Below, piece by piece: positions 3,044-51,812 of a stretch of DNA of 64,000 nucleotides. The stretch lies in contig JAWVDC010000071.1 of NCBI GenBank assembly GCA_033857715.1, forward strand, positions 11,932 to 75,931, given 5' to 3'. The position numbers and the translations under genes are program-made. Position 1 is the stretch's first letter. Each line of letters begins with the position of its first letter. This DNA comes from Gaiellaceae bacterium (GTDB lineage Bacteria > Actinomycetota > Thermoleophilia > Gaiellales > Gaiellaceae). The notes under the pieces were generated by a model. That model had not been told where the DNA came from, did not search any database, and was given only the letters and a program-made list of their open reading frames with translations.

Positions 3044-3781
3044 CTAAGCCGCCCCGAGGAGTGCGTTTGCGATCTCGAGGCGTAGCGCGGGCGGGCGGGT
3101 GCCGAAGCCTTCGAGCCAGATGGCGCGCTTGTAGAAGCGGTGGAGCGGGTGCTCCCACGTGAAGCCCGTGCCTCCGTGGACTTGGATCGAGCGCTCGCAC
3201 GCGACGACGGCCGCCTCCGTCGCGAACGCCTTCGCGGCGGCTGCGGCTAGAGCGGCGCGGTCGTCGTCGTTCGCGACGCACCACGCGGCCCAGTACGCGA
3301 GCGAGCGCGCGAGCTCGACGTCCGTGTACGTCTGCGCGAGTGGGTGGGAGACGGCCTGGTACGTACCGATCGGCTTGCCGAACTGCTCGCGCGTCTTCGC
3401 GTGCTCGATGCCGAGGTCGAGGGCGCGCTGCGCGATGCCGACCGCCTCCGCCGCCATCGCGGCGCGCAGCTTCGGCGACTCCTCGGGCGGCGTCGCGAGG
3501 GGACGGGTCGCGTCGACCGTGGTCGCGCCGTCGTTCTCGAGCCCCGTGACGTGCTGGAGGAACGGGCCGGGATAGAGCGCGTAGCCGAGCTCCTCGAGCA
3601 GTAGCGCCTCCTCGACGAAGCCGACTCCCGCGTCCGCGACGTCGGTCCAGCCGAGCTCCTCGAGCTCCGACCAGCGGTCGTCTTGAGCGTCCCAGTCGCG
3701 GTCGAGCGGGAACTTGTCCGCGAGCCACGCGCGCGCCGCGCCCTTGAGCTCCTGCTGATCCTCATTGAGCGCGAAATCCAT
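3044..3781 (-). CDS. short acyl-CoA dehydrogenase-family protein (245 aa), probable non-catalytic partner subunit
   Basis: Start re-picked at MDFALNEDQQELK. It has the ACAD N-terminal helical region and the C-terminal helical domain (AVGIAQRALDLGIEHAKTREQFGKPIGTYQAVSH..., VHGGTGFTWEHPLHRFYKRA). About 100 aa of middle domain are missing, and HGG replaces the usual catalytic xEG. Confidence 0.75.
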   Translation of the reverse strand: MDFALNEDQQELKGAARAWLADKFPLDRDWDAQDDRWSELEELGWTDVADAGVGFVEEALLLEELGYALYPGPFLQHVTGLENDGATTVDATRPLATPPEESPKLRAAMAAEAVGIAQRALDLGIEHAKTREQFGKPIGTYQAVSHPLAQTYTDVELARSLAYWAAWCVANDDDRAALAAAAAKAFATEAAVVACERSIQVHGGTGFTWEHPLHRFYKRAIWLEGFGTRPPALRLEIANALLGAA

Positions 3782-3790
3782 TAGGAGTGA

Positions 3791-3943
3791 CCCACCCGGT
3801 GATAGCCAGGGTCTCCCTGGCTGCTGCAAAGCGTCGCGATGCCGCGTCCTCGGTTGCGCCGATAGCTGGAGCTATCGGCGCGCCCTGCGTCCTTGCCTCG
3901 CTCGCTTTTCGCGAGCCAGGAAGACGTGTCTATTACCGGGCGG
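3791..3943. repeat. 153-bp structured palindromic intergenic repeat, copy 1 (MITE/REP-like)
   Basis: Collinear over its whole length with 50252-50404. The ends are inverted repeats (CCACCCGGTGATAG... / ...CTATTACCGGGCGG). The central perfect hairpin is GCGCCGATAGC-TGGA-GCTATCGGCGC (3856-3881). It fills the gap between the two ACAD genes. Confidence 0.8.
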
Positions 3944-3947
3944 ATCA

Positions 3948-5090
3948 CTAACGAGACCTCGGGAGGCCGAGGACGCGCTCGGCGATGATGTTGCGGAGAA
4001 CCTCCGACGTGCCGGCCTCGATCGTGTTGCCGCGCGAGCGGAGTTGCTGGTGGTTCCACCAGCCGTCGTCGAGGATCCCGTCCGGCCCGCGCAGCTCGCG
4101 CGCGAGCTTCGTCAGGCGCTGGTTCGCCTCCGACCAGCGGAGCTTCACGCCCGAGCCTTCCGGCCCCGGGATGCCCGTGCGCTCGAGCGTGCCGAGCGCG
4201 CGGTAGTTCGTGTACCGGAGCGCCTGCAGCTCGATCCACTCATGCGCCAACGCCTCGCGCACGCTCTCGCGGGGATTCCGCTCGCGCGCCTCTTCGAGCA
4301 GCCGCCCGACGACTCCGTCGAGCGTCGCGGTGAGCGCGAATCCGAGCGTCCCGCGTTCGTGGAGGAGCGTCGTCATCGCGACCGCCCAGCCGTCGCCCTC
4401 CTCGCCGAGCCGGTTCTCCACCGGCACCTCGACGTCGCTGAAGAAGATCTCGTTGAACTCCGCCTCGCCGGTGATCTGGCGCAGCGGGCGCACCTCGACG
4501 CCGGGCGCGTGCATGTCGACGATGAGGTACGTGAGGTTCCGGTAGCGCTGGCCCTCGGGGTCGCTCTGTGTGACGAGGATGCAGAAGTCGGCGATGTGCG
4601 CGAACGACGACCAGACCTTCTGGCCGTTGACGACGTAGACGTCGCCGCGCCGCTCGGCGCGCGTGCGCGCGGCGGCGAGATCGGAGCCCGCGTCCGGCTC
4701 GGAGAAGCCCTGGCACCAGATCTCCTCCGCGGCGAGTAGCGGCTGGAGGTAACGCGCCTTCTGCTCCTCGGTCCCGTGCGCGATGATCGTCGGGCCGGCC
4801 ATCCCGAGCCCGATCACGCCGACATGGGGCGGAGCCTGCGCCGCGGCGAGCTCCTCGTAGAGCATCGCCTGGTAGGTGTACGGAGCGCCGGCGCCGCCGT
4901 ACTCCTTCGGCCACGTCAGCCCGGCATAGCCCGCCTCGTACAGCAGCCGGCTCCACTCGCGGACGAACGGATCCTCGAACCGCTGCGCGCCGCCGCGGCT
5001 TCCGCGCTTGTCCTCGGGAAGGTTTACGTCGATCCACGCGCGCACCTCGGCGCGGAACGCGGCTTGTTCGGGCGTGTCCCTCAGGTCCAT
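3948..5090 (-). CDS. acyl-CoA dehydrogenase (full length, 380 aa)
   Basis: Track ORF. Typical ACAD blocks are present: WCQGFSEPDAGSDLAA, GQKVWSS, and the C-terminal NTIEAGTSEVLRNIIAERVLGLP carrying the catalytic-Glu motif. Confidence 0.9.
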   Translation of the reverse strand: MDLRDTPEQAAFRAEVRAWIDVNLPEDKRGSRGGAQRFEDPFVREWSRLLYEAGYAGLTWPKEYGGAGAPYTYQAMLYEELAAAQAPPHVGVIGLGMAGPTIIAHGTEEQKARYLQPLLAAEEIWCQGFSEPDAGSDLAAARTRAERRGDVYVVNGQKVWSSFAHIADFCILVTQSDPEGQRYRNLTYLIVDMHAPGVEVRPLRQITGEAEFNEIFFSDVEVPVENRLGEEGDGWAVAMTTLLHERGTLGFALTATLDGVVGRLLEEARERNPRESVREALAHEWIELQALRYTNYRALGTLERTGIPGPEGSGVKLRWSEANQRLTKLARELRGPDGILDDGWWNHQQLRSRGNTIEAGTSEVLRNIIAERVLGLPRSR

Positions 5091-22192: not shown

Positions 22193-24049
22193 GTGGAAGA
22201 GGCAGAGGACGAGGTCGACCGGGAGCGACGCGCGAGGCAGCTCGAACGCGACCGGCGCCGGCGCGAGCAGGGAAAGCAGACGTACTTCGAAGACACACCG
22301 GCCGACACGTTCGTCGAGTCGGCTCCGCCGGATGAGCCGACCGCGATCGTCGAGCGCAGCGACCTCGAGCTACCGCCCCCGGTAGAAGGCCTCGAGTCGA
22401 CTCCACCCGCTCGACCCAACGAGATCGTCGGGCGCAGCGATCTCGAGCTACCGGTCGAGGAGCCGCCCATAGAGGGAGAGTTGCCCGAGGCCCAGCGTGG
22501 GCTCGCCCGCTCGGGAGTCATCTTCGCGGTCGCAACGGGCCTTTCACGGGTCGTCGGCCTGGTCCGGGAGATCGTCCAGGCGGCGGTGTTCGGGATCTCG
22601 GGCCCGGTCAACGCCTTCGAGATCGCGTTCCTCATCCCGAACACGGTGCGCTCGCTCGTTGCCGACTCGGCGTTGTCGGCCGCGTTCGTCCCGGTCTTCA
22701 GCGACCTCCTCGTCAAAGGCGAGCGGCAGCGTGCATGGCGAGTCGCGTCGTCGCTCTTTTGGCTGATGCTGCTCGGGCTCGGAGGCCTGACGGCGCTCTT
22801 TGTCGTGATCGCGCCATGGGTGATGGCGCTCTTCGGCTTCGGTCCCGGCCACAAGTACGCGGTGCTCGCAGCCGGCCTCGCGCGCATTCTCTTCCCGCTC
22901 GTGCTCGTGCTCGGCCTGACGGGGATCGTCGTCGGAGTCCTCAACAGCTACGACCACTTCACCATTCCGGCGCTCACGCCGATCGCGTGGAACCTCGTCA
23001 TCCTCCTCGGGCTCGGGCTTGGCGTGCAGAGCTCGCACGCGCAGTCGACGCGGCTCTACTGGTACGCCGCGGCCATCCTCGTCGCGACCATCGTCCAGTT
23101 CCTGTTGCCGCTGCCCTGGCTGCGCGGCCGGGACGACCGACTACGGATGGCGATCGACATCCACGACCCCGCCGTAAAGCAGACGTTCAAGCTGATGCTG
23201 CCGGTGACGATCGGGCTCGGCCTGATCAACATCAACGCGGCGATCGACCAGCTCTTCGCGACGCACTTCCTCGATCCGCTTCAGGCGCCCGCGGCGATCG
23301 TGCGCGCTTTCCGCCTGTACATGCTCCCGCAGGGCGTGTTCTCCGTCGCCGTCGCGACCGTCCTGTTCCCGCTGCTGTCGCGGCACTCGGCGCGCGAGGA
23401 CTGGGAGGGGTTCAAGACGACGATCGCGATGGGCCTCCGGTTCATCTCGTTCCTCCTGCTTCCGGCAAGCGCGGCGGCGGCTGTGCTGGCCATGCCGATC
23501 GTGCGGCTCCTGTACCAGCACGGTGTGTTCACGGCCGAGCAGACGCACGTCGTTGCGCCGTGCCTGGCGGCGTTCGCGCTCGGGTTGACGTTCAACGGGA
23601 CGATGCTGATGCTCAACCGCGGCTTCTTCTCGCTGCAGTCGGCGTGGATCCCGACCGTCGTCGCGCTCATGAACCTCGCGATCAATGCGGGCCTCGACGC
23701 GGCGTTCTACCGCGTCGGAGTCTGGGGGATCCCGCTCTCGACCTCGATCGTCAACATCGCCGGCACGTGGGCGATGCTCATCCTCTTCCGGCGGCGCCTC
23801 GGCGGCTTCGACATGCGGGAGACGGTGGAGCGGTTCATGCTCGTCGCGGTCGCGTCGGCGGTGCTCGCTGCGGTCGCGTGGTGGACATGGCACCTCCTCG
23901 ACTTGGGGCTCGGCCAGTCCCTGGCGGCGCAGATCGTCTCTCTCGGCAGCGCGCTCGTCCTCGGCTACGCCGCCTTCTTCGGTGTGTGCCGGTTGTTGGA
24001 CGTGCGTGAGCTGGAGACGCTGCTGCGCCTGCGACGCGGCGGCGCTTGA
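22193..24049 (+). CDS. murJ: lipid II flippase MurJ with ~100-130 aa low-complexity N-terminal extension
   Basis: Track ORF 22109-24049. A TTG at 22109 would overlap the rpsT start, so GTG 22193 (or 22130) is preferred. The MurJ core starts near 22500 (GLSRVVGLVREIVQAAVFG..GPVNAFEIAFLIPN) and has about 14 helices. Confidence 0.8.
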   Translation: MEEAEDEVDRERRARQLERDRRRREQGKQTYFEDTPADTFVESAPPDEPTAIVERSDLELPPPVEGLESTPPARPNEIVGRSDLELPVEEPPIEGELPEAQRGLARSGVIFAVATGLSRVVGLVREIVQAAVFGISGPVNAFEIAFLIPNTVRSLVADSALSAAFVPVFSDLLVKGERQRAWRVASSLFWLMLLGLGGLTALFVVIAPWVMALFGFGPGHKYAVLAAGLARILFPLVLVLGLTGIVVGVLNSYDHFTIPALTPIAWNLVILLGLGLGVQSSHAQSTRLYWYAAAILVATIVQFLLPLPWLRGRDDRLRMAIDIHDPAVKQTFKLMLPVTIGLGLININAAIDQLFATHFLDPLQAPAAIVRAFRLYMLPQGVFSVAVATVLFPLLSRHSAREDWEGFKTTIAMGLRFISFLLLPASAAAAVLAMPIVRLLYQHGVFTAEQTHVVAPCLAAFALGLTFNGTMLMLNRGFFSLQSAWIPTVVALMNLAINAGLDAAFYRVGVWGIPLSTSIVNIAGTWAMLILFRRRLGGFDMRETVERFMLVAVASAVLAAVAWWTWHLLDLGLGQSLAAQIVSLGSALVLGYAAFFGVCRLLDVRELETLLRLRRGGA

Positions 24050-49090: not shown

Positions 49091-50245
49091 TTGGCACCCG
49101 ATGGATCAGTGACGGCAGAGAGCCACGACTTTCCCGCCGCCCAGGACGTTCCCGCCTCCGTCGCAGACCCGACGGAATCGGAGCGGCTGCACCGCAACCT
49201 CACTCCCGCGATCGCGGAGGTCGGGGACGATCGCGGCTTCTTGCGCTACGTCATTGCGACGCTCGTGGCGATGTTCGTCGGCCTTGCGCTCGTGTTCACG
49301 CTCAACGCGCTCGTCGATCCGTTCTCGCTCATGGGCACGAAGCTCCTCCCGCCGGCGATCGAGACCGACCGCTCGATCAAGCTCGACCTGATCGACAAGC
49401 TCACGACGAACCCGCAGCTCGTCGTCCTCGGCAGCTCCCGCTCCCGCCAGGCGGAGCCGTCCTTCATCGACAAGCTTACCGGCCTCAAGACAGGCTTCAA
49501 CGCCGGCGTCACGGGCGGGAACGCCTCCGACGCCTGGGTGATGATGCGCAACATCGACGCCCGCTTCCCCGGCCAGAAGCGCACCTATGTCTGGTTCGTC
49601 GACTATCCGCTCGCGTCGAACGGGATCAACCCGCAGCTCGCCGAGGACTCCCGCTCCGGCCCGTATCTCGGCGGTCAGAGCGTCCGCTTCTCGCTCGCCG
49701 ACGTCGGCACGTATCTCGGCTTCCAGGCGACGCAGGCGTCGTACCGCGTGCTCAAGGCGTGTATCGAGGGACGCTGCCACGGGAGCCTCCTCTACAACGC
49801 CGACGGCTCGCTCCGCGGCGCAGCGCTCAGGTACCTGCCCGAGAACGCGCCGTCGCTGAAGAAGGCGGTGGCCGAGAAGCTCAAGGCCGTCCGCACGCAG
49901 TCGCTCACGCTGCCGCCTTTCACCCCGAAGCAGCTCTCGTACTTCACGAAGGCGCTCGCATGGATGAACGCGCACGGCGCGACGCCCGTCATCGTCCTCA
50001 ACCCGCAATACCCGAGCGTCTACCACCTCCTGCGCGAGCGCGGCTCACACCGCGAGGCCGAGGCGCTCGCCGAGCTCCACAAGCTCCAGCAGCGCTACCG
50101 CTTCGCCGTCGTCGACTGCGCCGACATTCGCCTCTGGGGCGGAAAGGCGCGGGACTTCAACAACGCGACGCACGTCAACCGCCGGAACATGCGGCGGATG
50201 CTCCGCTACATCGTCGCCAATTCCGATGGAGCGCTCACCCGGTGA
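49091..50245 (+). CDS. membrane-anchored DltD/AlgJ-like putative O-acyltransferase partner protein (paralog 1)
   Basis: Track ORF of 384 aa (TTG 49091 or GTG 49109) with one N-terminal helix. It has the Ser block VVLGSSRSR and the C-terminal block FNNATHVNRRNM. It is about 40% identical by eye to 51812-52750. The family call is an inference. Confidence 0.55.
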   Translation: MAPDGSVTAESHDFPAAQDVPASVADPTESERLHRNLTPAIAEVGDDRGFLRYVIATLVAMFVGLALVFTLNALVDPFSLMGTKLLPPAIETDRSIKLDLIDKLTTNPQLVVLGSSRSRQAEPSFIDKLTGLKTGFNAGVTGGNASDAWVMMRNIDARFPGQKRTYVWFVDYPLASNGINPQLAEDSRSGPYLGGQSVRFSLADVGTYLGFQATQASYRVLKACIEGRCHGSLLYNADGSLRGAALRYLPENAPSLKKAVAEKLKAVRTQSLTLPPFTPKQLSYFTKALAWMNAHGATPVIVLNPQYPSVYHLLRERGSHREAEALAELHKLQQRYRFAVVDCADIRLWGGKARDFNNATHVNRRNMRRMLRYIVANSDGALTR

Positions 50246-50251
50246 TAGTGC

Positions 50252-50404
50252 CCCACCCGGCAGTAGACAGGGCGGCCCCGACGGCTGCAAAGCTTCGCGC
50301 TGCCGCGTCCTCAGTCGCACCGATAGCCATGGCTATCGGTGCTCCCTGCGTCCTTGCATCGCTCGCTTTTCGCTCGCCGGAACCGCGTGTCTACCACCGG
50401 GCGG
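50252..50404. repeat. 153-bp structured palindromic intergenic repeat, copy 2
   Basis: Collinear with 3791-3943 and the same length. The central 26-nt perfect palindrome is GCACCGATAGCCATGGCTATCGGTGC (50317-50342). It ends 8 nt before the MBOAT GTG. Confidence 0.8.
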
Positions 50405-50411
50405 GGCACTA

Positions 50412-51812
50412 GTGCTCTTCAACTCGTACGTCTTCCTCTTCGGCTTCCTGCCGCCCGTGCTCGTCGGCGTCTGGGCGATGCGGATCAAGGACGCCCGCCT
50501 CCTCTTCATCACTCTCGCGTCGTGGGTGTTCTACGCGTGGTGGGACTGGCGCTTCCTGCCGCTCATGCTCTCGACGACGACCGTCGACTACGTCGCGGCG
50601 CTCGCGATCCACCGCACTGCCAACGCGCGGAAGCGGAACCTGTGGCTGATCGGCTCGCTCGCGGTCAACCTCGGCCTGCTCGGCTACTTCAAGTACGCGA
50701 GCTTCTTCCTCAACTCGCTCAACGGCCTGGGGAAGGCGATCGGCGCACCGGTCGGGCTCCCCGACCTCCACATCCTCCTGCCGATCGGGATCAGCTTCTA
50801 CACGTTCAACTCGATGTCGTACACGATCGACGTCTGGCGGGGCCGTGTCGAGCCGACGAAGCACATCCTCGAGTACTCGGCCTTCGTCGCACTCTTCCCG
50901 CACCTCATCGCGGGGCCGATCGTGCGGTTCATCGACCTCCAGCCGCAGTTGCGCATGCCCCGGCCGCGGCTGACCGCGGAAGCCGCGGGTGTCGGCGTGT
51001 ACTTCTTCGTGTGCGGCCTTACGAAGAAGCTGCTGCTCGCCGACCAGCTCTCGCCGCACGTCGACGCGCTCTTTGCGAACTCCAATCAGCTCGGCTTCGT
51101 CGGCTCGTGGGCGGCCGCGATCGGCTACGCGCTCCAGCTCTACTTCGACTTCTCGGGGTACTCGGACATGGCGGTGGGGCTCGCGTGGCTCATCGGCTTC
51201 CGGTTCCCCCAGAACTTCAACTCGCCGTACAAGGCGGTGAACGTGTCGGACTTCTGGCGGCGCTGGCACATGAGCCTGTCGGCGTGGTTCCGCGACTACC
51301 TCTTCATCCCGCTCGGCGGGTCGCGGCGTGGGGCGAGGCGGACGGTCGTCAACCTCGTGCTGACGATGTTCCTCGCCGGGCTCTGGCACGGTGCGGCGTG
51401 GACCTTCGTCGTGTGGGGGCTTGCGTGGGGGCTCGCGCTCGGTGTCCACGGCGTGCTCTCGAACCTCGGCTTGACGCCGAGGAGCCTGGTCGTCAATCGC
51501 GTTCTGACGTTCCTCTTCGCCGTTGCGGCTTTCGTCATCTTCCGCGCGCCGAATCTCCACGTCGCCGGGACGATCCTCTGGCGGATGGCCGGGACCGCCG
51601 GCGTCGAGTCGTGGGCGACGCTCCAGCCGTTCCTGCCGGGCCGGTTCATCCTCCTCCTGATCGCGCTACTCGCCTTCGTCCAGTTCGCGCCGAACACGTG
51701 GCAGGTGAGGCTCAGGCCGCGCTTCGTCTACGGCCTTGCGACTGGTGTTGCCGCCGCGCTGGCAGTAATGTCGATCGCGGTGCCGCATCCGTTCATCTAC
51801 TTCCAGTTCTGA
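50412..51812 (+). CDS. MBOAT-family membrane-bound O-acyltransferase (AlgI/DltB/PatA-like)
   Basis: GTG start at VLFNSYVFLFGFLP. It is polytopic and carries the signature FWRRWHMSLSAWFRDYLFIPLGGSR with the conserved His. Confidence 0.85.
   Translation: MLFNSYVFLFGFLPPVLVGVWAMRIKDARLLFITLASWVFYAWWDWRFLPLMLSTTTVDYVAALAIHRTANARKRNLWLIGSLAVNLGLLGYFKYASFFLNSLNGLGKAIGAPVGLPDLHILLPIGISFYTFNSMSYTIDVWRGRVEPTKHILEYSAFVALFPHLIAGPIVRFIDLQPQLRMPRPRLTAEAAGVGVYFFVCGLTKKLLLADQLSPHVDALFANSNQLGFVGSWAAAIGYALQLYFDFSGYSDMAVGLAWLIGFRFPQNFNSPYKAVNVSDFWRRWHMSLSAWFRDYLFIPLGGSRRGARRTVVNLVLTMFLAGLWHGAAWTFVVWGLAWGLALGVHGVLSNLGLTPRSLVVNRVLTFLFAVAAFVIFRAPNLHVAGTILWRMAGTAGVESWATLQPFLPGRFILLLIALLAFVQFAPNTWQVRLRPRFVYGLATGVAAALAVMSIAVPHPFIYFQF

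What the first reader, a model, noticed from the sequence alone, without database searches (positions are those of the whole stretch)
3791..3943. 153-bp highly structured palindromic repeat (copy 1) with compensatory changes relative to copy 2
The 153-bp segment 3791-3943 is collinear, at equal length, with 50252-50404. Each copy folds on paper into one long hairpin.

- Outer arms: copy 1 has CCACCCGGTGATAGCCAGGGTCTCCCTGGCT against AGCCAGGAAGACGTGTCTATTACCGGGCGG.
- Middle arms: GCAAAGCGTCGCGATGCC against GGCAAGG...GCGAGCGCTTTTCGC-type pairing.
- Apical hairpin: perfect in both copies.

Where the copies differ, both strands of a stem change together:
- Apical stem: GCGCC...GGCGC in copy 1 versus GCACC...GGTGC in copy 2.
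- Outer stem: GTCTCCCTGGC/GCCAGGAAGAC in copy 1 versus GCGGCCCCGACGG/CCGGAACCGC in copy 2.

This argues for selection on the structure, or for co-evolving terminal inverted repeats, as in MITE or REP/BIME-like elements.

Copy 1 exactly fills the spacer between the two ACAD genes, which are on the minus strand. Copy 2 sits between plus-strand genes in the same absolute orientation, so the element works or is tolerated in both transcriptional orientations.
Basis: seen in the sequence. Interest (0 to 1): 0.6.

Follow-up and report, generated by a model that had tools for sequence, protein, structure and literature searches.

The report
Mobile hairpin repeat at gene junctions
The 153-bp palindrome is one copy of a roughly 160-nt mobile hairpin-forming DNA repeat, not found in the literature I searched, that soil Thermoleophilia bacteria carry in dozens of copies wedged between tightly packed genes; it is a small genomic parasite or passenger, not a dedicated regulator of the neighbouring genes.

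Summary
The two segments are equal-length (162 nt) and 79% identical. Each folds into one long hairpin and fills its whole intergenic gap.

They are not a private pair:
- The 2.4-Mb genome holds about 47-50 copies.
- The 75-nt core occurs in 161 of 301 sampled genomes of the class, plus one other actinobacterial family.

Each element has a near-invariant asymmetric core and interchangeable outer arms of at least three types. In the core, two stems covary and the two internal-loop strands are invariant.

The elements are mobile:
- Copy 1's site is empty in all eight genus relatives whose junction I aligned, and the flank hits in several more also abut without an insert.
- Copy 2's site is empty in four relatives.
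- Fifteen other copies have empty sites in the nearest relative, and none is shared.

Two polarities emerged. All 47 copies fold better on the window's minus strand (wobble pairs 64 versus 6). Yet the other strand is the sense strand in 57 of 73 co-directional contexts.

Best reading: a non-autonomous palindromic element, akin to MITEs and REPs, that propagates through a strand-specific single-stranded hairpin. The mobilising enzyme is unknown. An IS630-type parent, TnpB and a cognate RAYT are each unsupported. I see no consistent target duplication.

The parts
3782..3950 (-). Copy 1 of the element. GTG...CAC body at 3787-3948, an extra GGA at 3784-3786, and TA dinucleotides at 3782-3783 and 3949-3950. 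The strand given is the one that folds best.
   Evidence: The site is empty in the eight genus relatives whose junction was aligned, and flank hits abut without an insert in several more.
3836..3901 (-). Conserved core of copy 1. On the plus strand: P1 arms 3836-3842 and 3895-3901; loop strands 3843-3855 (CGCGTCCTCGGTT) and 3882-3894 (GCCCTGCGTCCTT); P2 hairpin 3856-3866 and 3871-3881; apical loop 3867-3870.
   Evidence: Alignments. Pair counts. Model R1 hit at C71:15762-15836.
50246..50411 (-). Copy 2 of the element. GTG...CAC body at 50248-50409, with TA at 50246-50247 and at 50410-50411.
   Evidence: Four relatives have only TGA, a 12-nt spacer and a start codon at this junction.
50297..50362 (-). 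Conserved core of copy 2. P1 arms 50297-50303 and 50356-50362; loop strands 50304-50316 and 50343-50355; P2 hairpin 50317-50327 and 50332-50342; apical loop 50328-50331.
   Evidence: R1 hit at C71:62223-62297.
3948..5090 (-). Acyl-CoA dehydrogenase gene (380 aa). Its TAG stop codon (CTA at 3948-3950) is made of the element's last base plus the flanking TA.
3044..3781 (-). ACAD C-terminal-domain gene (245 aa). Its ATG (CAT at 3779-3781) directly abuts the element.
49091..50245 (+). Upstream ORF of copy 2 (384 aa, no Pfam hit). Its TGA stop is at 50243-50245, 2 nt before the element body. Its last 13 nt (50236-50248) repeat an element-terminus-like motif, CACCCGGTGATAG.
50412..51812 (+). MBOAT acyltransferase gene. 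Its GTG start follows the element immediately.

Best explanation
What it is:
- The segment is one copy of a non-autonomous, mobile, palindromic intergenic element of about 160 nt. It is akin to MITEs and REPs.
- The family is specific to Thermoleophilia and one further actinobacterial family.

Anatomy:
- A 75-nt core sits at the centre. It has a 7-bp stem (P1), an asymmetric internal loop and an 11-bp hairpin (P2).
- The two loop strands are invariant. On the folding strand they read AGGACGCAGGG and GAGGACG.
- Interchangeable outer arms extend the hairpin to the element ends.

Shown here:
- It is multi-copy.
- It is absent from the orthologous sites of related species, so it moves or turns over quickly.
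- It lands exactly in the tiny gaps between genes, against stop and start codons.
- Its stems covary.
- Its hairpin is built for one strand (the window's minus strand).

Inferred:
- It is copied or moved as a single-stranded hairpin of that strand, most likely ssDNA.
- An enzyme supplied in trans recognises the conserved core, and the ends are set by the base of the stem and not by a fixed terminal sequence.
- It is tolerated because each end brings an inbound stop codon (TA plus the terminal G or C) and G-rich, Shine-Dalgarno-like ends.
- Insertions that put the very stable strand into an operon's mRNA are mostly purged. This would explain the 57:16 orientation bias.
- It is not a dedicated regulator of the ACAD or MBOAT genes.
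For: Copy number and spread:
- nhmmer finds 50 loci in the 2.38-Mb assembly.
- The exact core pattern occurs 39 times in this genome. The reversed-pattern control finds none in any of the 41 genomes searched.
- The pattern is found in 26 of 41 relatives.
Of the 80 loci listed, all but one came from MAGs labelled Actinomycetota/Actinomycetes, Thermoleophilia, Gaiellales or Solirubrobacterales; the exception was labelled Acidobacteriota.
- Covariance model R1 hits 161 of 301 class genomes, covering 70 of 105 genera.
- In a phylum sample, R1 hits only the class plus one other family.

Mobility:
- Copy 1's site is empty in the eight genus relatives aligned across the junction, and left- and right-flank hits abut in several more.
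- Fifteen further copies have empty sites in the closest relative, G008, and none of the 28 tested is shared.
- Copy 2's site is empty in four relatives.
- Genome G014 holds 16 copies at 80-96% identity to their consensus (14 of them at 89% or more), which indicates a recent burst.

Structure:
- 82.4% of cells pair, against 59.6% in shuffles.
- 270 cells show changes on both sides, against 103 in shuffles; 0 of 500 shuffles reach the observed value.
- Slid-partner controls pair at 29-42%.

Strand polarity:
- Non-Watson-Crick pairs in P2 are C.A/A.C 64 versus G.T/T.G 6 on the plus strand, so they are wobble pairs on the minus strand (binomial 2e-13).
- All 47 of 47 copies fold better as the minus strand, by a mean of -20.5 kcal/mol.
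- The bias is the same in every gene context.

Gene junctions:
- About 25 flanking stop codons lie within 0-5 nt of an element end.

Orientation:
- 57 versus 16 in co-directional contexts, p = 1.5e-6.
Against: - No mobilising enzyme was identified.
- I see no consistent target-site duplication. TA lies on both sides of both window copies, but of only 3 of 13 recent copies in G014.
- Junction bases differ from the empty sites by more than the flanks do.
- The orientation bias runs opposite to what lagging-strand ssDNA transposition of the IS608 type would predict. It therefore has to be explained by selection.
- Class-wide invariance of the loop motifs is unusual for a purely selfish MITE. It would also fit a host function.
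Confidence: 0.72

Rival explanations
1. A REP/REPIN-type element mobilised by the genome's RAYT-like Y1 tyrosine transposases. This names the enzyme within the best explanation: the RAYT would bind the core hairpin with its GACG/CGTC motifs on one strand.
For: - The genome has three Y1_Tnp / REP_Tyr_transpos-like genes.
- Two of them lie about 0.6-0.8 kb from an element copy. My rough estimate of this happening by chance is below 0.01.
- The strand-specific hairpin fits HUH/Y1 chemistry.
- Y1_Tnp is present in 13 of 16 high-copy genomes and 8 of 20 zero-copy genomes (Fisher p = 0.019).
- Both loop strands carry CGTC on the plus strand. CGTC is the tag of one REP super-family (PMC3733652).
Against: - Each RAYT-like gene is flanked by, or abuts, a different repeat family built on GGACRTGTCC hairpins: on both sides at C18 and C73, and one motif at the 3' end at C132. 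GGACGTGTCC alone occurs about 50 times in the genome.
- No adjacency is seen in relatives.
- Four copy-rich genomes show no RAYT match. G012 has 23 exact cores and no homologue of the C18 RAYT-like protein. G043, G065 and G229 have no Y1_Tnp match.
- The association is confounded by phylogeny.
- The tag spacing does not match the CGTC-REP definition.
Confidence: 0.22
2. A functional structured RNA, such as an intercistronic processing, stability or termination element or a protein- or ribosome-binding site. It would have been spread by a mobile carrier and then retained for host benefit.
For: - The loop motifs are invariant across 70 genera and the stems covary.
- Orientation relative to transcription is strongly biased.
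- The elements sit directly on stop codons.
- On the mRNA-sense strand the loops are pyrimidine-rich and resemble an anti-Shine-Dalgarno sequence.
Against: - The strand that folds well is antisense to the flanking genes in 78% of co-directional cases.
- None of the 28 tested copies sits at a shared orthologous site.
- Rfam gives no match at gathering threshold, and only chance-level hits at E of 0.1 or more.
- Neighbouring genes are functionally unrelated.
Confidence: 0.15
3. A classical cut-and-paste MITE of an IS630/Tc1-mariner-type DDE transposon that inserts at CTAG/TA and duplicates the TA.
For: - TA flanks both ends of both window copies.
- CTAG occurs at 5 of 16 empty sites, and YTAR or GTAG at 5 more.
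- Earlier AI note e1-2411433 made this proposal.
Against: - TA lies on both sides of only 3 of 13 near-identical copies in G014. Recurrent TAG...TGATG junctions are not duplications.
- DDE_3 is absent from 9 of 10 high-copy genomes, including this one.
- No split or autonomous copy exists in the burst genome or in this genome.
- The termini are the most variable part and the centre the most conserved.
- The strand asymmetry is unexplained by a double-stranded DNA mechanism.
Confidence: 0.08
4. A local duplication or a chance palindrome with no wider family.
For: None beyond the initial two-copy view.
Against: About 50 copies lie on 40 or more contigs, and the family is distributed across the class.
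Confidence: 0.01

Closest known systems
ERIC/IRU (127-bp enterobacterial repetitive intergenic consensus) and Correia/NEMIS elements of Neisseria
   Same: - Elements of 100-170 nt that fold into one long hairpin.
- Dozens of copies per genome.
- Intergenic and co-transcribed, often against stop codons.
- Insertion-polymorphic between related species.
- No transposase of their own.
- Orientation matters for the mRNA.
(The properties of ERIC and Correia elements are stated from my own knowledge. PMC2759123 and PMC3184786 appeared in the search but were not read.)
   Different: - Here the centre is conserved and the termini are variable.
- The outer arms are modular, with at least three types plus an optional module of about 35 nt.
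- I see no consistent TA duplication.
- There is a strong single-strand folding asymmetry.
- The core is conserved across a whole class, not a genus or family.
REP/REPIN-RAYT systems, including CGTC-tagged REPs (Di Nocera et al. 2013, PMC3733652; Bertels and Rainey 2011, PMC3116915)
   Same: - Strand-specific hairpin with short conserved unpaired motifs.
- Long vertical persistence.
- RAYT-like genes are present in the genome.
- CGTC tetranucleotides occur in both loop strands.
- CGTC REPs likewise lack a dedicated transposase.
   Different: - The core is not two inverted REPs.
- The CGTC motifs lie 6-7 nt from an 11-bp stem, as a direct repeat on both sides. They are not a terminal tag next to an 8-9-bp stem that begins with A-T pairs.
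- The RAYT-like genes here are flanked by another repeat family.
IS200/IS605-derived PATEs (palindrome-associated transposable elements)
   Same: - Single-strand, hairpin-based recognition.
- No target duplication.
- Strand polarity.
   Different: - The genome has no TnpB and no IS200-type copy with matching ends.
- There is one central hairpin, not two subterminal ones.
- Orientation relative to genes is opposite to the lagging-strand expectation.
MIRUs of mycobacteria (Supply et al. 1997; from my own knowledge)
   Same: They sit between operon genes and overlap stop and start codons. In A-type copies one frame is open from the left TAG to the right TGA (165 nt).
   Different: B-type and C-type copies have stop codons in all three frames, so a coupling ORF is not a property of the family. 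MIRUs are tandem direct repeats, not hairpins.

Membership tests
IS630/Tc1-mariner-type MITE | Exact TA target-site duplication at every copy | tested here: not met
   TA lies on both sides of both window copies, but of only 3 of 13 recent G014 copies. Many junctions read TAG...TGATG.
IS630/Tc1-mariner-type MITE | Parent IS or DDE_3 transposase in the genome with the same terminal inverted repeats | tested here: not met
   PF13358 is absent from 9 of 10 high-copy genomes, including this one. No split copies were found.
IS630/Tc1-mariner-type MITE | Terminal inverted repeats are the conserved, recognised part | tested here: not met
   Mean per-column diversity is 0.13-0.16 in the terminal 14 nt and 0.055 in the interior. 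Three unrelated arm types share one core.
REP/REPIN-RAYT | The RAYT gene is flanked by the repeat it mobilises | tested here: not met
   The RAYT-like genes at C18 and C73 are flanked on both sides by GGACRTGTCC-type hairpins, and the one at C132 has one such motif at its 3' end. The nearest copies of this element are 0.6-3.7 kb away, on one side only.
REP/REPIN-RAYT | Repeat and RAYT co-occur across genomes | tested here: inconclusive
   Y1_Tnp is present in 13 of 16 high-copy and 8 of 20 zero-copy genomes (p = 0.019) but is absent from G043, G065 and G229. G012 has 23 exact cores and no homologue of the C18 RAYT-like protein. The association is confounded by phylogeny.
REP/REPIN-RAYT | Recognition of a hairpin on one DNA strand | tested here: met
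   Wobble asymmetry is 64 versus 6, and 47 of 47 copies fold better on one strand. Binding itself is not testable with these tools.
CGTC-tagged REP super-family (PMC3733652) | Terminal unpaired CGTC directly next to an 8-9-bp stem that begins with A-T pairs, a 4-5-nt loop and a 3-nt tail | tested here: not met
   The CGTC motifs are 6-7 nt from an 11-bp G-C-closed stem, and loops are 3-7 nt. The definition was read.
Known RNA families (Rfam 15) | Match at gathering score | tested here: not met
   The only hit in the window is a tRNA. Over the element, only chance-level hits at E of 0.1 or more appear.
IS200/IS605 PATE | Companion TnpA/TnpB element with the same ends | tested here: not met
   No TnpB domain scores above its cut-off. 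No orphan half-elements flank a gene.
ERIC/Correia-like hairpin MITEs (functional class, not a sequence family) | A 100-170-nt hairpin, multi-copy, intergenic, insertion-polymorphic and without coding capacity | tested here: met

The most novel reading that the evidence does not exclude
The near-invariant asymmetric core is the recognition module of an as yet unknown strand-specific system conserved across Thermoleophilia. This could be an ssDNA, or possibly RNA, mobilising or processing activity. It would be distinct from DDE transposases and from the RAYTs that serve the genome's other REP family. It would cut at the base of a hairpin wherever that base lies, so the element ends would be defined by structure and would be rewritten in pairs at each round.
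Probability: 0.25. Interest if true: 0.75.

Novelty: new variant of a known kind. Interest (0 to 1): 0.5.

Why it matters
- Small palindromic repeats (REP, ERIC, Correia, CGTC-REPs) are widespread, but for many of them the mobilising activity and the reason for their persistence are unknown.
- This family offers an unusually clean handle on that question:
  - a class-wide invariant core;
  - modular arms;
  - a tenfold wobble asymmetry that names the active strand;
  - a clear orientation filter relative to transcription;
  - recent bursts in some genomes.
- It is also a practical annotation issue for Thermoleophilia MAGs. The elements sit on stop and start codons and lie near several contig ends, so they probably break assemblies. 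They can also be mistaken for riboswitch-like regulators.

Tried and rejected
1. Termini copied from the target site. Eyeballed similarities between element ends and empty-site sequences did not survive a permutation test (own pairs 7.82, cross pairs 7.81, p = 0.52).
2. Long direct duplication of a terminus in the opposite flank. This is sporadic only (one 12/12 case, L180; the mean is not above cross-copy controls).
3. MIRU-like coupling ORF. A frame is open only in A-type copies. B-type and C-type copies have stops in all frames.
4. Autonomous parent with split halves. None exists in this genome or in the burst genome G014.
5. TnpB/IS605. Absent.
6. IS630 DDE_3. Absent from 9 of 10 high-copy genomes.
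7. RAYT as the cognate enzyme. The RAYT-like genes carry a different flanking repeat.
8. Rfam. No family matches.
9. Plasmid or phage carriage. No match.
10. Replication-strand bias. Hit strands along the long contigs of G014 show no obvious switch pattern. This was not tested formally.
12. Literature. Nothing was found on such repeats in Thermoleophilia.
13. Nucleotide-level junction rules. The nearest genome is only about 80-90% identical in the flanks, so exact insertion chemistry could not be read.

Full report
**1. Observation**

- Window 3791-3943 and 50252-50404 align without gaps.
- Read with their ends, the two elements are 3787-3948 and 50248-50409. Both are 162 nt and share 128 of 162 positions.
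- Each is flanked by TA on both sides. Copy 1 has three extra bases, GGA, at its left end.
- Both fold into a single long hairpin far more stable than dinucleotide shuffles, with z between -6.6 and -10.
- Copy 1 occupies the whole gap between two minus-strand acyl-CoA dehydrogenase genes. On one side is the ATG of the 245-aa gene (CAT at 3779-3781). On the other is the TAG of the 380-aa gene (CTA at 3948-3950), which is built from the element's last C plus the flanking TA.
- Copy 2 lies between the TGA of a plus-strand ORF (50243-50245) and the GTG start of an MBOAT gene (50412). It has the same absolute orientation as copy 1.

**2. It is a family**

- BLAST and three rounds of nhmmer on the window's own 2.38-Mb, 172-contig, 69% G+C assembly give 50 loci on more than 40 contigs.
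- The alignment shows a shared central core. On the window's plus strand it reads GCGMTGC-NG-CGTCCTCRGTC-[11-bp hairpin]-TCCCTGCGTCCTTG-GCMTCGC.
- At least three unrelated kinds of outer arm surround the core:
  - A-type, as in the window: TAG-GTGNCCC...GGGNCAC-TGA/TAG.
  - B-type: TAG-GAGCTCCTAACG...
  - C-type: TAG-GAGGGATCGG...
- Each arm type extends the hairpin. An optional module of about 35 nt occurs in some A-type and C-type copies.
- Several copies lie within a few hundred bases of contig ends.

**3. Distribution**

- The exact pattern CGTCCTCRGT-N22-40-CCCTGCGTCCT occurs 39 times in this genome. The reversed control finds none in any of the 41 genomes searched.
- The pattern is in 26 of 41 relatives. 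That includes a second family of the order, with up to 49 copies.
Of the 80 loci listed, all but one came from MAGs labelled Actinomycetota/Actinomycetes, Thermoleophilia, Gaiellales (including Gaiellaceae) or Solirubrobacterales (including Solirubrobacteraceae and Thermoleophilaceae). The exception was labelled Acidobacteriota.
- A covariance model of the core (R1) hits 161 of 301 class genomes, covering 70 of 105 genera.
- In a 251-genome phylum sample, R1 hits only the class plus one other family (10 genomes). The remaining roughly 220 genomes have none.
- There is no match in plasmid or phage collections, and none to any Rfam family.
- No paper on such repeats in these bacteria was found.

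**4. Structure**

- I aligned 70 representative cores, each less than 90% identical to the others, on the folding strand. The structure tested was P1 (7 bp) plus P2 (11 bp).
- 82.4% of cells pair, against 59.6% in shuffles and 29-42% when the partners are slid.
- 17 of 18 pairs show changes on both sides. That amounts to 270 cells, against 103 expected, and 0 of 500 shuffles reach the observed value.
- The two strands of the internal loop are invariant: AGGACGCAGGG, and GA..GAGGACG.

**5. Polarity**

- Non-Watson-Crick pairs in P2 are C.A or A.C in 64 cases and G.T or T.G in 6, read on the plus strand (p = 2e-13). On the minus strand they are therefore almost all G.U/T wobbles.
- All 47 full-length copies fold better as the minus strand, by a mean of 20.5 kcal/mol. 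Copy 1 gives -104.9 versus -96.2 kcal/mol, and copy 2 gives -119.5 versus -91.0.
- The bias is the same whatever the orientation of the neighbouring genes. It is therefore a property of the element and not of local selection.
- A double-stranded binding site would not show this. A single-stranded form of one defined strand is therefore what is copied or selected.

**6. Gene context**

- About 25 flanking stop codons lie within 0-5 nt of an element end.
- In co-directional contexts, the plus-motif strand is the sense strand 57 times and the antisense strand 16 times. This pools this genome with 120 instances from other genomes (p = 1.5e-6).
- The strongly folding strand is thus usually the template strand.
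- This is the opposite of what insertion into the lagging-strand template would give if genes are mostly co-oriented with replication.
- I therefore attribute the bias to selection against a hairpin of about -105 to -120 kcal/mol inside operon transcripts, or on the exposed non-template strand. This is inference.
- Copy 1 is one of the minority cases in which the stable strand is transcribed.

**7. Mobility**

- I aligned the ACAD-ACAD junction from eight genus relatives. All lack the element and read ...CCATCAGCG..., which on the minus strand is CGC TGATG GAC, a stop codon overlapping the start codon.
- In several further relatives, the left- and right-flank hits abut without an insert.
- Of 27 further copies tested against the closest relative, G008, 15 have both flanks adjacent with no element. 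None has an orthologous copy.
- At the MBOAT junction, four relatives have TGA, a 12-nt G-rich spacer and then ATG or GTG, and no element.
- Genome G014 carries 16 A-type copies at 80-96% identity to their consensus, 14 of them at 89% or more. No split or longer version exists.

**8. Ends and insertion chemistry (unresolved)**

- TA, TAG or CTA is common at the junctions, and CTAG occurs at 5 of 16 empty sites.
- However, TA lies on both sides of only 3 of 13 recent G014 copies. The recurrent TAG...CAC-TGATG junction is not a duplication.
- The bases next to the junction differ from the empty sites more than the flanks do.
- In the G014 burst, the terminal 14 nt and the top of the apical stem are the most variable parts (0.13-0.16 versus 0.055). 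Yet they change in pairs, for example GCGTCCC...GGGACGC and GTGGCCC...GGGCCAC.
- Paired changes on so short a time scale suggest correction of one arm from the other. Candidates are quasipalindrome template switching, a known replication process (PMC7202029), or repair within a hairpin intermediate. This is inference.
- The idea that the termini are copied from the target was tested and rejected.

**9. Candidate enzymes**

- The genome has three RAYT-like Y1 transposase genes. They score 50-66 bits on NF047646, below its cut-off of 80, and they pass the Pfam Y1_Tnp cut-off.
- Two of them lie 0.6-0.8 kb from an element copy.
- However, the genes at C18 and C73 are bracketed on both sides by a different palindromic family, and the one at C132 has one such motif at its 3' end. 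That family is built on GGACRTGTCC hairpins, and GGACGTGTCC alone occurs about 50 times. It is their likely cognate REP.
- Across genomes, Y1 genes are commoner in high-copy than in zero-copy genomes (13 of 16 versus 8 of 20, p = 0.019).
- They are nevertheless undetected in several copy-rich genomes. G012 has 23 exact cores and no homologue of the C18 protein. G043, G065 and G229 have no Y1_Tnp match.
- TnpB is absent. IS630-type DDE_3 is absent from 9 of 10 high-copy genomes.
- The plus-strand loops each contain CGTC, the tag of a REP super-family that also lacks a dedicated transposase. The spacing and stem rules of that super-family are not met.

**10. Verdict**

- The thing is a member of a large family of mobile palindromic intergenic elements. 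I found no description of the family in the literature I searched.
- Its unusual features are a conserved centre with variable ends, modular arms, single-strand polarity and a class-wide core.
- How it moves is not shown. My best guess is a strand-specific single-stranded hairpin intermediate handled by an enzyme supplied in trans.
- Other agents of this scan reached similar descriptions for copies in other genomes. I treat those as leads, not as evidence.

Noticed in passing
Own genome outside the window: L174:2540-2570 and 3188-3218 (= C18:22039-22069 and 22687-22717); L175:2230-2290 and 2875-2935 (C73); C132:5337: A second interspersed palindromic family is built on GGACRTGTCC/GACACGTCCGG hairpins. 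GGACGTGTCC alone occurs about 50 times. It brackets two of the three RAYT-like Y1 transposase genes and abuts the third. This looks like a classical REP-RAYT system in a Thermoleophilia genome.
   Followed up: partly
window 50236-50248: The last 13 nt of the ORF upstream of copy 2 (CACCCGGTGATAG, including its TGA) repeat an element-terminus motif that is identical to copy 1's left arm. Relatives end this gene one codon earlier and follow it with a 12-nt Shine-Dalgarno spacer. This may be a remnant of an earlier insertion or excision.
   Followed up: partly
Own genome copies C13:24655-24849, C171:862-1057, C140:20518-20712, C146:17058-17230, C132:885-1081, C17:1254-1448, C13:27642-27802: An optional module of about 35 nt (GACTCCTCGCTTCGCTCGTCGGCCGGCTTCGCCGGCTG, itself a small hairpin) is inserted between the P1 5' arm and the loop strand. 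It occurs in copies of two different arm types, which gives a mosaic, BIME-like modularity.
   Followed up: no
L180 (G014:C3:39770-40370): In one burst copy, the 12-nt left terminus GTACCCCTCCAG, including its private A variant, recurs exactly just beyond the right end. The test found no such duplication above cross-copy controls across the 13 G014 and 10 own A-type copies; a second copy (L188) showed 9 of 12.
   Followed up: partly
Phylum sample, family f15 (e.g. G477:C10:7920-7993, G562 several): The core also occurs at high scores in ten genomes of one actinobacterial family outside the class. This points to either an old origin or horizontal spread. The lineage name is hidden by the tool.
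   Followed up: no
A-type copies, e.g. window 3782-3951: The left TAG and the right stop codon are in the same frame, 165 nt apart, with no stop between them. A read-through or re-initiating ribosome would therefore translate a 54-codon peptide that ends on the next gene's start codon. Given the base composition this is not significant (chance about 0.3), and it is not shared by B-type or C-type copies.
   Followed up: yes
Own genome contig ends (C26:31-189, C159:290-451, C17:405-567, C166:775-944, C132:885-1081, C154:63323-63395): Several copies lie within 1 kb of contig ends, and one is cut by a contig end. The family probably fragments short-read assemblies of these MAGs.
   Followed up: no
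window 49091-50245: The 384-aa ORF upstream of the MBOAT gene has no Pfam hit at E of 0.01 or below.
   Followed up: no
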